The notes beneath the pieces are model-generated. The model searched no databases, was not told the origin of the DNA, and worked only from the letters and a program-made list of their open reading frames with translations. Positions 55,602 to 58,869 of a DNA stretch of 64,000 bases are shown piece after piece. Made by a program: the position numbers and the translations under genes. How positions within the stretch are numbered: the stretch's first letter is position 1; every line of letters starts with the position of its first letter. This stretch comes from the human T2T-CHM13v2.0 reference genome, Homo sapiens: the NCBI RefSeq assembly GCF_009914755.1, contig NC_060936.1, one strand, 5' to 3'.

Positions 55602-55901
55602 CTGAGAAGAAAACAAAAGTACAAAAATTACATTTAAAATCCACAAGCAGCATTCTTAAAACTGCCATTCAGAAAGGTGGCACCGATCACTACTCCCTCC
55701 GCTGACAACCAGAGAGCACCACCTCCCCAGCCCCTCACCACACAGGGTGCGGCCAGGCCTCCGATCCGTGGTGGTCTCACTGCCGCAAGGCCCCACTCTA
55801 GTGACCAGCATGACCACCTCTGGTCTAAAGCACACTCTTCAGTGACTGTGACCTCAACACGTTTAAAACACATCCCAGCAAGTACCTCCTCATCAGACTT
55901 C

Positions 55902-56937
55902 TGTAGGGACCAGCCCCACAGGGTCAGTGGGTCTCCCCCTGTGTGCGGCGACGAGAGTGTAGAAATAAAGACACAAGACAAAGAGACAAGAGAAAAGGCA
56001 GCTGGGCCTGGGGGACCACTACCACCAATGCGCGGAGACCGGTAGTGGCCCTGAATGTCGGGCTGCGCTGTTATTTATTGGATACAAGGCAGAAGGGGCA
56101 GGGTAAAGAATGTGAGTCACCTCCAATGATAGGTAAGGTCACGTGGGTCACGTGTCCACTGGACGGGGGCCCTTCCCTGCCTGGCAACCAAGGCAGAGAG
56201 GGAGAGGAGACACAAAGACAGCTTACGCCATTATTTCTGCATATCAGGGACTATTAGTACTTTCACTAATTTACTACTGCTGTCTAGAAGGCAGAGCCAG
56301 GTATACAGGATGGAACATGAAGGCAGACTAGGAGTGTGACCACTGAAGCACAGCATCACAGGGAGATGGTTAGGCCTCCGGATAACTGCGGGCAGGCCTG
56401 ACATCAGTCAGGCCCTCCACAAGAGGTGGAGGAGCAGAGTCTTCTCTAAACTCCCCCGGGGAAAGGGAGACACCAACCCCCACCCCCGCCCCCCCGCCCC
56501 CCGGTTCCCGGTCTGCTAAGTAGTGGGTGTTGTTCCTTGACACCTTTTGCTACCGCTGGACCACAATCCGCCTGGTAACGGGCGTCTTCCCGTCTTCCCA
56601 GACACTGGCTTCACCGCTAGACCAAGGAGCCCTCTGGTGGCCCTGTCTGGGCATAACAGAAGGCTTGCACTCTTGCCTTCTGGTCACACCTCACTATGTC
56701 CCCTCAGCTCCTATCTCTGTATGGCCTGGTTTTTCCTAGGCTATGATTATAGAGCGAGGATTATCATAATATTGGAATAAAAAGTAATTGCTACAAACTA
56801 ATGATTAATGATATTCATATATAATCATATCTAAGATCTATATCTGGTGTAACTATTCTTGTTTTATATTTTATTATACTGGAACAGCCCGTGTCCTCTG
56901 TCTCTTGCCTCGGTGCCTGAGTGGCTTGCCACCCACA
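55902..56937 (-). mobile_element. Solo LTR13 (ERVK, HERV-K13/HML-4 type), copy 1, sense to GOLGA3
   Basis: TG...CA termini; 5' end TGTGGGTGGCAAGCCAC on -; 6-bp TSD GACTTC at 55896-55901 and 56938-56943; family from recalled consensus. Confidence 0.88.
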
Positions 56938-57399
56938 GACTTCCTCAACAGAACTTTCCTGGCTACTCTCCAGTTTATTTTATTTTTTTGGATAAACATA
57001 GAAATTTTCTTCAAGGCCGGGCGTGGTGGTTCACATGTGTAATCCCAGCACTTTGGGAGGCTGAGGCGGGCAGATCATTTGAGGTAAGGAGTTCAAGACC
57101 AGGCTGGCCAACATGTTGAAACCCCCGTCTCTACTAAAAATACAAAAAAATGAGCCAGGCATGGTGGCACACACCTGTAATCTCAGCTACTTGGGAGGAT
57201 GAGGCAGGAGAATCACTTGAACCCAGGAGGTGGAGGTCGTAATAAGCCGAGATCATGCCACTGCACTCCAGCCTGGGTGACAGAGTGAGACCCTGTCTCC
57301 AAAACAAAAAAAAATTTCTTCAAAAAGGAAGAACATTCTGTTGAACTATAACCACCTTAAATCCATAATTTCCTCCGCCTGCCCACATCTGCTTGCACG

Positions 57400-58363
57400 T
57401 GTGGGCGGCAAGCCACCCAGGTGCCGAGGCAAGAGACTGAGGACGCGAACTGTTCCAGTATAATAAAGTATATAAAATAAGAATAGTTATACCAGATATA
57501 GATCTTAGATATGATTATATATGAATATCATTAATCATTAGTTTGCAGCAATTACTTTTTATTCCAATATTATAATAATCCTCACTCTACAATCATAACC
57601 TAGGAAAAACCAGGCCATACAGAGATAGGAGCTGAGGGGACACAGTGAGAAGTGACCAGAAGACAAGTGCGAGCCTTCTGTTATGCCCAGACAGGGCCAC
57701 CAGAGGGCTCCTGGGTCTAGCGGTAACGCCAGCATCTGGGAAGACGCCCATTGCCAAGCAGACCATGGTCTAGCGGTAGCATCAGTGTCAAGGAAAAACA
57801 CCCACTACTTAGCAGAGTTTAGAGAAGACTCTACTCCTCCACCTCTTGTGGAGGGCCTGACATCAGTCAGGCCCGCGCACAGTTATCCGGAGGCCTAACC
57901 ATCAACCTGTGATGCTGTGCTTCAGTGGTCACACTCCTAGTCTGCTTTCATGTTCCATCCTGTACACGTGGCTCTGCCTTTTAGATAACAGTAGCAAAAT
58001 TAGTGAAAGTACTAAAAGTCTCTGATATGCAGAAATAATGGCATAAGCTGTCTCTCTCTCTCCCTCTCTCTCTACCTCAGCTGCCAGGCAGGGAAGGGCC
58101 CCCTGTCCAGTGGGCACGTGACCCACGTGACCTTACTTATCATTGGAGATGACTCACACTCTTTACCCTGCCCCTTTTGCTTTGTATCCAATAAATAACA
58201 GCACAGCCTGACATTCGGGGCCACTACCTGTCTCCACGTCTTGGTGGTAGTGGTCCCCCGGGCCCAGCTGTCTTTTATCTCTGTCTTGTGTCTTTATTTC
58301 TACACTCTCTCGTCTCCGCACACAGGGAGAAAACCCACTGACCCTGTGGGGCTGGACCCTACA
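57400..58363 (+). mobile_element. Solo LTR13, copy 2, antisense to GOLGA3
   Basis: Starts TGTGGGCGGCAAGCCACCCAGGTGCCGAGGCAAGAG, ends GGACCCTACA; TSD TGCACG at 57394-57399 and 58364-58369. Confidence 0.88.
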
Positions 58364-58869
58364 TGCACGCCCCTCAACAGAGCAGCTACCCCACCCCCAT
58401 CTAGAACCCAGGCCCTCTGCGGCCATTCTAACTTATTTCTCAGTTTATCCTTTTTGTTGTTATAAATGTTATACTTCCCACTAATCTTACAACTGCTAGG
58501 ATAACTCTTGATTTTTCATACTTGCATTTTTATTTTTTTTTTGAGATGGACCCAGGCTGGAGTGCAGTGGTGCAATCTTGGCTCACTGCAACCTCTGCCG
58601 TCTGGGTTCAAGCGATTCTCCTGTCTCAGCCTCCTGAGTAGCTAGGATTACAGGGGTGTGCCATCACATCCGGCTAATTTTTTGTATTTTTAGTAGAGAC
58701 GGGGTTTCTCCACGTTGGCCAGGCTGGTCTCAAACTCCTGACCTCAAGCAATCCGCCCGCCCCACCCTCCCATAGTGCTGGGATTATAGGTGTGAGCCAC
58801 TGCACCCAGCCAGATTAAAGTATTTAAAAACATAACCTTAAAGGTATAAGAAGAACACGCTGGTCATTT

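What the first reader, a model, noticed from the sequence alone, without database searches (positions are those of the whole stretch)
55896..58369. Two independent solo LTR13 insertions form a head-to-head ~1 kb inverted repeat in GOLGA3 intron 4
Seen: LTR copy 1 (55902-56937, minus, TSD GACTTC) and copy 2 (57400-58363, plus, TSD TGCACG) lie 462 bp apart in opposite orientation. Different TSDs mean two separate proviral integrations, each reduced to a solo LTR, and not a duplication or one provirus. Knowledge: LTR13 is a low-copy ERVK LTR, so two within ~0.5 kb is unexpected. Inference: the pre-mRNA can fold into a ~1 kb non-Alu dsRNA stem ending 300 nt upstream of the exon 5 acceptor (candidate ADAR/PKR/MDA5 substrate or splicing modulator). 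The pair could also invert the spacer by NAHR. The TSDs are correctly paired here, so this haplotype is not inverted.
Basis: partly seen in the sequence, partly recalled or inferred. Interest (0 to 1): 0.8.

Follow-up and report, generated by a model that had tools for sequence, protein, structure and literature searches.

The report
Inverted solo LTR pair in GOLGA3
Two separate remnants of an ancient HERV-K-type retrovirus lie head-to-head in one intron of GOLGA3 and could fold the pre-mRNA into a long hairpin, but the arrangement is an ordinary by-product of where this repeat family accumulates, and nothing yet shows that it does anything.

Summary
Copy 1 (55902-56937, minus, 1036 bp) and copy 2 (57400-58363, plus, 964 bp) are TG...CA-bounded LTRs. 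Each has its own perfect 6-bp target-site duplication, and they lie head-to-head 462 bp apart, 300 nt upstream of the exon 5 acceptor.

They are 91.6% identical. That is no closer than unlinked genomic copies are to each other (median 91.6%), and they are not sisters in a tree. Two independent insertions is therefore well supported.

The family is HERV-K-type: a provirus with these LTRs carries HERV-K env, Rec and integrase. It has about 527 genomic copies and a conserved CTCF-like motif. All of this fits LTR13 (HML-4), but no named reference sequence was available, so the name is not tested.

The predicted pre-mRNA hairpin is very large: 913 inter-arm pairs and -1906 kcal/mol, and it is kept when the whole intron is folded. 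Editing, immune sensing and splicing effects are all untested.

Inversion by homologous recombination is unlikely, because the longest perfect match between the arms is 55 bp.

The pair is not unique. A second head-to-head pair with a 714-bp spacer lies on chromosome 8. The family also clusters strongly by region, so roughly 0.5 such pairs are expected genome-wide.

Verdict: a real but ordinary feature of low to moderate interest.

The parts
55896..55901 (.). Target-site duplication GACTTC, outer side of copy 1
   Evidence: identical hexamer at 56938-56943
55902..56937 (-). Solo LTR copy 1, 1036 bp, TG...CA ends, same orientation as GOLGA3 transcription
   Evidence: It aligns end to end with copy 2 and with 29 genomic copies.
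56074..56079 (-). AATAAA of copy 1 in GOLGA3 sense, followed downstream (to about 55960) by a stem-loop and a GU-rich tract
   Evidence: In the minimum-free-energy fold, 112 of 126 nt of this module pair with copy 2 (58184-58302).
56470..56505 (-). G-run block found only in copy 1 (approximate limits). It replaces part of a 32-nt palindrome that 26 of 29 other copies have, and it forms the main bulge of the hairpin.
56626..56640 (-). CTCF-like motif CCACCAGAGGGCTCC in copy 1
   Evidence: 1 mismatch to a consensus recalled from memory. The same LTR position carries the motif in 19 of 31 copies.
56938..56943 (.). Target-site duplication GACTTC, inner side of copy 1
56944..57393 (.). Spacer of host DNA. 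It includes an Alu at 57015-57314 (plus strand) with its own roughly 12-bp imperfect TSD. Without the Alu the two integration sites are about 140-150 bp apart.
57394..57399 (.). Target-site duplication TGCACG, inner side of copy 2
57400..58363 (+). Solo LTR copy 2, 964 bp, TG...CA ends, antisense to GOLGA3. It lacks the 32-nt palindrome.
57697..57711 (+). CTCF-like motif in copy 2, divergent with respect to the motif in copy 1
58364..58369 (.). Target-site duplication TGCACG, outer side of copy 2

Best explanation
Shown: two separate germline integrations of a HERV-K-type retrovirus landed about 0.15-0.46 kb apart in opposite orientation in what is now GOLGA3 intron 4. The LTR family behaves like LTR13 / HML-4. 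Each provirus later collapsed to a solo LTR by recombination between its own two LTRs, which left each LTR flanked by its own 6-bp duplication. The closeness of the two is best explained by the family's strong regional clustering plus chance.

Inferred: both LTRs are now transcribed passively within the intron. The antisense copy (copy 2) is made first and the sense copy (copy 1) about 0.5 kb later. Thermodynamically they pair into an imperfect duplex of about 0.9 kb. Such a duplex would be a nuclear ADAR substrate and would be discarded with the intron. It probably has little or no selected effect on GOLGA3.
For: - Distinct, perfect, correctly paired TSDs and TG...CA ends.
- Identity between the two copies is 90.9% in the 31-sequence alignment. 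The median for 406 pairs of unlinked copies is 91.6%, and 69% of those pairs are at least as similar as copy 1 and copy 2.
- In the tree the two copies sit in different parts, with long terminal branches of 0.0555 and 0.0377 against a median of 0.0383.
- True proviral LTR pairs of this family are 95.6-97.0% alike, much closer than this pair.
- Solo LTRs with their own 5-6-bp TSDs are the norm in this family: 17 of 29 other copies have a perfect 6-bp TSD and 5 more a perfect 5-bp TSD.
- Family size: 527 marker matches against 0 for the control.
- Regional clustering: 56 marker pairs lie within 1 Mb among the 100 listed sites. The density-aware expectation is 0.2-0.3 pairs within 4 kb, against 0.023 under a uniform model, and 2 were observed.
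- Hairpin: -1906 kcal/mol, with 913 of 1079 pairs between the arms. All 913 are kept when the whole 4762-nt intron is folded.
- Inverted LTRs that form dsRNA or Z-RNA in human and mouse transcripts are in print (PMC12711578, passages).
Against: - The name LTR13 rests on indirect features only.
- No expression, editing or duplex data were available, so the RNA-level part is prediction alone.
- Co-transcriptional folding could favour other pairings. The Alu in the spacer is 80% complementary to the Alu at 58550-58811 (pairs I5 and I6), and that pairing would cross the LTR-LTR pairing.
- The census of close pairs covers only the 100 of 527 marker sites that the tool listed (contigs 1-9, exact matches). 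The genome-wide expectation of about 0.5 is my own extrapolation.
- A sense-oriented LTR with an intact polyadenylation module kept in an intron is the less common orientation. That could hint at something more than neutrality.
Confidence: 0.75

Rival explanations
1. The two arms come from one event: an inverted duplication, or one provirus whose LTR was inverted. The chromosome 1 locus L032 appears to be a case of the latter.
For: Such a structure exists in the same family. At L032 two arms are 97.0% alike, tail-to-tail and without gaps. One arm is followed by a primer-binding-site-like sequence, and the outer flanks match 5 of 6.
Against: In the window each arm has its own perfect 6-bp TSD, and the two TSDs are unrelated. 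Identity between the arms is at the family background, not the 96-97% of a provirus. The arms are not sisters in the tree. The spacer is host DNA plus an Alu, with no match to the LTR.
Confidence: 0.03
2. The hairpin has a selected RNA-level role. Either it is an immunogenic or ADAR-buffered dsRNA (MDA5/PKR/ZBP1 ligand), or it modulates exon 5 splicing.
For: The predicted duplex is very stable and long: 913 pairs, with a longest uninterrupted helix of 160 bp counting G-U pairs. Inverted LTR repeats have been pulled down as Z-RNA/ZBP1 ligands in infected cells (PMC12711578, passages). The stem ends 300 nt from the acceptor.
Against: The duplex is intronic, so it reaches cytoplasmic sensors only if the intron is retained or read through. 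It has 80 mismatches and 90 gap columns. The branch-point region lies outside the stem. No paper among those searched links GOLGA3 intron 4 to editing or dsRNA; the only GOLGA3 editing found is in the 3' UTR.
Confidence: 0.1
3. The upstream antisense copy neutralises the sense copy. By pairing with it, copy 2 hides the polyadenylation module of copy 1, so a harmful sense-oriented LTR could be tolerated in the intron.
For: Copy 1 is sense to GOLGA3 and keeps AATAAA, the stem-loop and the GU-rich tract. In the fold, 112 of 126 nt of that module pair with copy 2. HERV-K-T47D (HML-4) LTRs are reported to polyadenylate cellular transcripts 69 or 84 nt after AATAAA (Baust 2000, as cited in PMC2664473, passages). 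Intronic HERV-K LTRs show an antisense bias in a sister family: 20 antisense against 7 sense (PMC5142424, passages). The supplied RefSeq table lists no exon ending in copy 1.
Against: The order of the two insertions is unknown. The terminal branches only suggest that copy 1 is older, by about 1.9 SD on my arithmetic. Intronic poly(A) sites are generally suppressed anyway (my own knowledge: U1 telescripting). There is no 3'-end data.
Confidence: 0.1
4. The relevant activity is at the DNA level. One or both LTRs bind CTCF, giving a divergent CTCF pair about 1 kb apart inside GOLGA3 that acts as a loop anchor or boundary element.
For: A CTCF-like motif lies at the same LTR position in both arms, on opposite strands. 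It is present in 19 of 31 family copies. In print, 379 of 492 LTR13 instances contribute to open chromatin. In K562 cells, 82.9% of the 210 open instances are CTCF-bound (PMC3649963, passages). [quoted passage not shown]
Against: The motif consensus I used is recalled from memory, and each site has one mismatch to it. The family name is unverified. No ChIP data were seen for this locus. The supplied RefSeq functional-element list shows nothing here, although two entries were not displayed.
Confidence: 0.3
5. The inverted arms mediate recurrent inversion of the 462-bp spacer (NAHR polymorphism).
For: Inverted orientation, arms of about 1 kb and a short spacer.
Against: Identity is 91.6%, and the longest perfect tracts are 55, 44, 41 and 40 bp. 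That is well below the roughly 200 bp or more of uninterrupted identity that I recall as needed for efficient mammalian homologous recombination (recalled, not checked). The arms show no sign of homogenisation. This haplotype is not inverted.
Confidence: 0.03

Closest known systems
LTR13 / LTR13A, the LTRs of HERVK13 = HERV-K(HML-4), prototype HERV-K-T47D
   Same: - LTR of about 1 kb, with 5-6-bp TSDs.
- HERV-K-type internal genes in a provirus that carries these LTRs.
- About 527 copies, against 492 LTR13 instances in print (PMC3649963) and roughly 493 + 188 implied by PMC5529029 Table 1.
- A conserved CTCF-like motif.
- AATAAA followed by a G...C stem-loop, with the GU-rich tract about 87 nt downstream. 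This fits the 69/84-nt polyadenylation distance described for HML-4 (PMC2664473).
   Different: No alignment to a named Repbase or Dfam consensus was possible here, so membership is inferred. Copy 2 lacks a 32-nt palindrome that is typical of the family, and copy 1 has a private 28-nt G-run block.
Inverted-repeat Alu pairs in introns and UTRs (classic ADAR substrates)
   Same: Two retroelement copies in opposite orientation in one transcript, at about 80-90% identity, predicted to fold back into dsRNA.
   Different: The arms are about three times longer and belong to a family of about 500 copies. The pair therefore has no alternative partners nearby: none in the 64-kb window. No editing data were seen.
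Inverted LTR repeats reported as host Z-RNA/dsRNA ligands of ZBP1 (PMC12711578)
   Same: Inverted LTR pairs that form duplex RNA when transcribed.
   Different: Those were detected experimentally, mostly in aberrant read-through or intergenic transcripts during infection. This pair lies in a constitutive intron and is only predicted to pair.
Second head-to-head pair of the same family on contig 8 (L031, G000:C8:144202159-144204832)
   Same: Left arm on the minus strand and right arm on the plus strand, 5' ends facing, short spacer (714 bp), arms at background similarity (87.1%).
   Different: Only one arm keeps a recognisable TSD. The spacer is unrelated apart from Alu fragments.

Membership tests
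Solo LTR of an LTR retroelement | TG...CA termini and a short direct target-site duplication flanking a single LTR | tested here: met
   Both copies have TG...CA ends and perfect 6-bp TSDs, GACTTC and TGCACG.
Solo LTR of an LTR retroelement | U3-R-U5 signals: AATAAA with a downstream GU/T-rich tract | tested here: met
   AATAAA lies at LTR position 859 (copy 1) and 791 (copy 2), and a second AATAAA at about position 790-860 is present in 26 of 31 copies. The stem-loop and GU-rich tract can be read.
ERVK (class II, betaretrovirus-like HERV-K) | 6-bp target-site duplication (feature recalled from general knowledge) | tested here: met
   Of the 29 other copies, 17 have a perfect 6-bp TSD, 2 have 5 of 6 matching and 5 have a perfect 5-bp TSD.
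ERVK (class II, betaretrovirus-like HERV-K) | Proviruses bounded by this LTR encode HERV-K-type genes | tested here: met
   In L033, two direct LTRs (95.6% alike) flank reading frames that match PF13804 HERV-K_env_2 (E 4e-17 and 2e-15), PF15695 HERV-K_REC (1.4e-8), PF00665 rve, PF02022 and PF00517.
LTR13 (Repbase/Dfam family; HML-4) | Best match to the named consensus | not testable with these tools
   No Dfam, Repbase or RepeatMasker here, and no named HML-4 sequence was reachable.
LTR13 (Repbase/Dfam family; HML-4) | Copy number of a few hundred, and a CTCF site carried by the LTR | tested here: met
   527 marker matches against 492 instances in print (PMC3649963). The CTCF-like motif is present in 19 of 31 copies. 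This is suggestive, not exclusive.
LTR13 (Repbase/Dfam family; HML-4) | Polyadenylation 69/84 nt after AATAAA, made possible by a stem-loop in R | tested here: inconclusive
   The sequence has the stem-loop, and the GU-rich tract begins about 87 nt after AATAAA. No cleavage site was mapped.
ADAR-edited intramolecular dsRNA | Long intramolecular duplex within one transcript | tested here: met
   Prediction only: 913 inter-arm pairs, also kept in the whole-intron fold.
ADAR-edited intramolecular dsRNA | Clustered A-to-I sites on both arms | not testable with these tools
   No RNA-seq or editing database was available. Literature searches found nothing for this intron.
MDA5/PKR self-ligand | Cytoplasmic, long, near-perfect duplex | not tested
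   The location is intronic. The duplex has 80 mismatches and 90 gap columns. Localisation is unknown.
NAHR inversion substrate | Long tracts of uninterrupted identity between the inverted arms | tested here: not met
   The longest perfect run is 55 bp. The threshold it is compared with is recalled, not checked.

The most novel reading that the evidence does not exclude
The pair is a self-neutralising arrangement. A sense-oriented HML-4-type LTR with a working polyadenylation module survives inside an essential-gene intron only because an antisense copy, transcribed just before it, sequesters that module in about 0.9 kb of duplex RNA. The same two LTRs also supply a divergent CTCF pair. If that is right, close inverted pairs of this family would be retained preferentially rather than by chance. 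The pairs seen so far are this one, the chromosome 8 pair and possibly others among the 427 marker sites that were not listed.
Probability: 0.1. Interest if true: 0.5.

Novelty: new member of a known kind. Interest (0 to 1): 0.25.

Why it matters
If the hairpin forms in cells, it would be one of the longer non-Alu intramolecular duplexes in a broadly expressed human gene. The family has only about 500 copies, so the pair has no competing partners nearby. That would make it a clean natural test case for three things: ADAR editing of LTR-derived dsRNA, masking of an intronic poly(A) signal, and what happens to such RNA when introns are retained or transcription reads through. As it stands, it is a correctly described but ordinary repeat configuration.

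Tried and rejected
No earlier notes were used.
The census of close pairs therefore rests on the 100 of 527 marker sites that one search listed, plus the flanks of 29 loci.
- A full-text search for the 12-mer core of the LTR's CTCF-like motif found 5 papers. Judging by their titles and abstracts, none concerns LTR13.
- GOLGA3 + LTR13 gave 0 papers.
- GOLGA3 + dsRNA gave 15 papers. None of the 14 listed concerns this intron.
- GOLGA3 + inverted repeat / A-to-I gave only a 3' UTR editing site.
- I considered using the published 'DQ-LTR13' near HLA-DQB1 as a named anchor for the family. I dropped the idea because that element is dimorphic and its name may not refer to the Repbase family.
- Gene conversion between the arms was rejected. 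Their identity equals the sum of their private branches, and they are not sisters in the tree.
- A special integration mechanism for close pairs is not supported. Of the two close inverted pairs in the sample, one (chromosome 1) is a single rearranged provirus (97.0% identity). That leaves one independent pair against 0.2-0.3 expected.
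Full report
**1. The observation**

The repeat finder on 55000-59500 returns a collinear series of inverted arms. They run from 55902-55939 / 58326-58363 (outermost) to 56862-56937 / 57400-57475 (innermost), at 72-97% complementarity.

Reading the sequence and printing the flanks gives two elements:
- Copy 1 is 55902-56937 (1036 bp, minus strand).
- Copy 2 is 57400-58363 (964 bp, plus strand).

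Each begins TGTGGG and ends CCCTACA in its own orientation. Copy 1 is flanked by GACTTC on both sides (55896-55901 and 56938-56943). Copy 2 is flanked by TGCACG on both sides (57394-57399 and 58364-58369).

A global alignment of the two copies has 875 matches, 80 mismatches (61 transitions, 19 transversions) and 90 gap columns, which is 91.6% identity over aligned bases.

The 462-bp spacer holds an Alu (57015-57314) with its own imperfect duplication of about 12 bp. Without that Alu the two integration sites are only about 140-150 bp apart. Whether the Alu came first is unknown.

The hub annotation places exon 5 at 54943-55601, so copy 1 ends 300 nt upstream of the acceptor. A polypyrimidine tract followed by AG lies at that acceptor, and GTGAGT lies at the exon 4 donor.

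**2. One event or two**

Two unrelated, perfectly paired hexamers already argue for two integrations. I tested this against the rest of the family.

The window's own genome could be searched. Copy 2 finds 610 first-look candidates; 40 were scored, and the full-length copies are 83-90% identical.

I aligned copy 1, copy 2 and 29 other full-length copies. These 29 were the top hits to copy 2, so the sample leans toward copy 2. The results are:
- Copy 1 against copy 2: 90.9% identity.
- Median of the 406 pairs among the other copies: 91.6%, and 69% of those pairs are at least as similar as copy 1 and copy 2.
- Median identity of copy 1 to the others: 90.3%.
- Median identity of copy 2 to the others: 92.4%.

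In a maximum-likelihood tree the two copies sit in different parts of a star-like topology. Their terminal branches are 0.0555 (copy 1) and 0.0377 (copy 2), against a median of 0.0383.

For contrast, LTR pairs that belong to one provirus in this family are much closer: 95.6% at L033 and 97.0% at L032.

The two arms are therefore ordinary, unrelated members of the family. There is no sign of duplication or gene conversion.

With the 2.2e-9 per site per year rate quoted in PMC4056453 (passages), the terminal branches give roughly 25 and 17 million years. This is rough. It is younger than the roughly 35 million years attributed to HML-4 in PMC5142424 (passages). The difference between the two arms is only about 1.9 SD on my arithmetic.

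**3. What the family is**

- TSDs in the 29 other copies: 17 have a perfect 6-bp duplication, 2 have 5 of 6 matching, 5 have a perfect 5-bp duplication and 5 are unclear or truncated.
- Internal genes: at L033 two direct copies flank frames that match Pfam HERV-K_env_2, HERV-K_REC, integrase core, integrase zinc domain and GP41. The family is therefore an LTR of a HERV-K-type (ERVK) virus.
- Copy number: a 24-mer marker with up to 3 mismatches occurs 527 times in the genome, and the control pattern occurs 0 times.
- CTCF-like motif: CCACCAGAGGGCTCC, or its one-base variant CCACTAGAGGGCTCC, sits at LTR position about 300 in 19 of 31 copies, including both arms here. The consensus I scanned with is recalled from memory.
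- Polyadenylation module: AATAAA is followed by a G...C stem-loop, and a GU-rich tract starts about 87 nt downstream.

The literature on LTR13 matches these features:
- LTR13/LTR13A are the LTRs of HERVK13 = HML-4 (PMC5753468, passage).
- There are 492 LTR13 instances, of which 379 contribute to open chromatin. In K562 cells, 82.9% of the 210 open instances are CTCF-bound (PMC3649963, passages).
- LTR13 is a primate-specific CTCF-bound repeat with fewer than 300 binding events (PMC4056453, passages).
- HML-4 transcripts are polyadenylated 69 or 84 nt after AATAAA because of a stem-loop in R (PMC2664473, passages, citing Baust 2000).

Everything fits LTR13. But I could not align the copies to a named consensus, so the name remains an inference.

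**4. How unexpected the proximity is**

Under a uniform model, 527 copies in 3.117 Gb give about 0.04 pairs with a gap of 462 bp or less (my arithmetic). The family is far from uniform, however.

Among the 100 exact-marker sites that one search listed (contigs 1-9; 427 further matches were not listed), 56 pairs lie within 1 Mb. There are dense runs near the ends of contigs 8 and 9 and at 101-104 Mb on contig 7. The window is itself subtelomeric on chromosome 12.

In that sample, four pairs lie within 12 kb: two direct and two inverted.
- The contig 8 inverted pair (L031) is a second head-to-head pair. It has a 714-bp spacer, arms 87.1% alike, and a recognisable TSD on one arm only.
- The contig 1 inverted pair (L032) is tail-to-tail. 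Its arms are 97.0% alike without gaps, one arm is followed by a primer-binding-site-like sequence, and the outer flanks match 5 of 6. It looks like one rearranged provirus.

Separately, 1 of the 29 loci fetched with 1.5-kb flanks (L004) holds a second, direct copy 522 bp away, 91.8% alike.

If pair density is taken from the 20 kb to 1 Mb range, 0.2-0.3 pairs within 4 kb are expected in the sample, against 0.023 under the uniform model. One or two were observed. Scaling to all copies and to a gap of 462 bp or less gives about 0.5 such pairs genome-wide (my extrapolation).

The GOLGA3 pair is therefore uncommon, but regional clustering plus chance is enough to explain it.

**5. RNA level**

GOLGA3 is on the minus strand. 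The pre-mRNA therefore carries copy 2 (antisense) first, then the spacer, then copy 1 (sense).
- The minus strand of 55896-58369 folds at -1906 kcal/mol. Of its 1079 pairs, 913 are between the arms. They form 49 helices, the longest being 160 bp uninterrupted when G-U pairs are counted.
- When the whole 4762-nt intron is folded, all 913 inter-arm pairs are kept. The two upstream Alus pair with each other.
- A kinetic caveat applies. The spacer Alu is 80% complementary to the Alu at 58550-58811. That pairing would cross the LTR-LTR pairing and could form first during transcription.

No tool here gives editing, J2 or PARIS data. Literature searches found no report for this intron. The one GOLGA3 editing study found concerns the 3' UTR (PMC5665907, passages). 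Inverted LTRs that form dsRNA or Z-RNA are already documented elsewhere (PMC12711578, passages).

Nuclear ADAR editing of this duplex is plausible. MDA5 or PKR engagement would need the intron to reach the cytoplasm, and there is no evidence that it does.

One specific idea is worth testing. Copy 1 presents an intact polyadenylation module in GOLGA3 sense (AATAAA at 56074-56079, minus strand). In the predicted fold, 112 of 126 nt of that module are paired to copy 2.

**6. DNA level**

The two CTCF-like motifs are divergent (56626-56640 on minus, 57697-57711 on plus). Given the published behaviour of LTR13, CTCF occupancy at one or both is a reasonable expectation, but it is unverified.

Inversion by homologous recombination is unlikely. 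The longest perfect tracts are 55, 44, 41 and 40 bp.

**7. Differences between the arms**

The 60-nt gap between the arms has two causes. Of the 29 other copies, 26 carry a 32-nt palindrome at this position.
- Copy 2 has lost the whole palindrome. L013, L018 and L022 have lost all or part of it.
- Copy 1 has a private 28-nt run of G-tracts at that position, G-rich on the GOLGA3 sense strand.

**8. Verdict**

The structure and the two-insertion history are confirmed. The ERVK class was tested and met. The LTR13 name is consistent with the evidence but not tested. The rarity argument is weakened. The functional claims remain predictions.

This is an unreported instance of a known kind of feature, and its interest is low to moderate.

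Noticed in passing
L031 (G000:C8:144202159-144203162 minus; 144203877-144204832 plus): A second head-to-head pair of the same LTR family, with a 714-bp spacer and arms 87.1% alike. The right arm has a 5-bp TSD (ATGAG). The left arm has none and abuts an Alu fragment.
   Followed up: partly
L032 (G000:C1:237326503-237327510 plus; 237330220-237331227 minus): Tail-to-tail LTRs 2.7 kb apart that are 97.0% identical with no gaps. The left one is followed by a primer-binding-site-like TGGCG sequence also seen after the 5' LTR of L033. The outer flanks are AAATTC / AAATTT. It looks like one provirus with an inverted LTR. How that arose is unexplained.
   Followed up: partly
L004 (G000:C21:44606074-44610087), positions 1-978 and 1501-2514: Two direct copies of the family 522 bp apart and 91.8% alike. 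The right one has its own TSD inside an Alu. The left end of the left copy runs off the locus.
   Followed up: no
window 56470-56505 (approximate), minus strand: Copy 1 carries a private 28-nt block of G-runs, in sense with GOLGA3 pre-mRNA. At this position 26 of 29 other copies have a 32-nt palindrome. The block is the main unpaired bulge of the predicted hairpin and looks prone to forming a G-quadruplex.
   Followed up: partly
window 56626-56640 (-) and 57697-57711 (+): CTCF-like motifs at the same LTR position in both arms, forming a divergent pair about 1 kb apart. The motif is kept in 19 of 31 family copies.
   Followed up: partly
window 58837-58932, minus strand: The RefSeq exon of other transcripts has a GT donor after 58837 but no AG directly before its 5' end. 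It lies at the edge of an Alu. It is probably an alternative first exon, and its downstream intron contains the whole inverted repeat.
   Followed up: partly
G000 contigs 7 (101-104 Mb), 8 (143.8-146.3 Mb) and 9 (140-150 Mb): Exact-marker copies of the family are strongly concentrated in a few GC-rich, mostly subtelomeric regions: 18 of the 100 listed sites are on contig 9, and 13 of those lie beyond 140 Mb.
   Followed up: partly
window 57015-57278 versus 58550-58811: The spacer Alu is about 80% complementary to an Alu just outside copy 2. That pairing would cross the LTR-LTR pairing and could compete with it during transcription.
   Followed up: no
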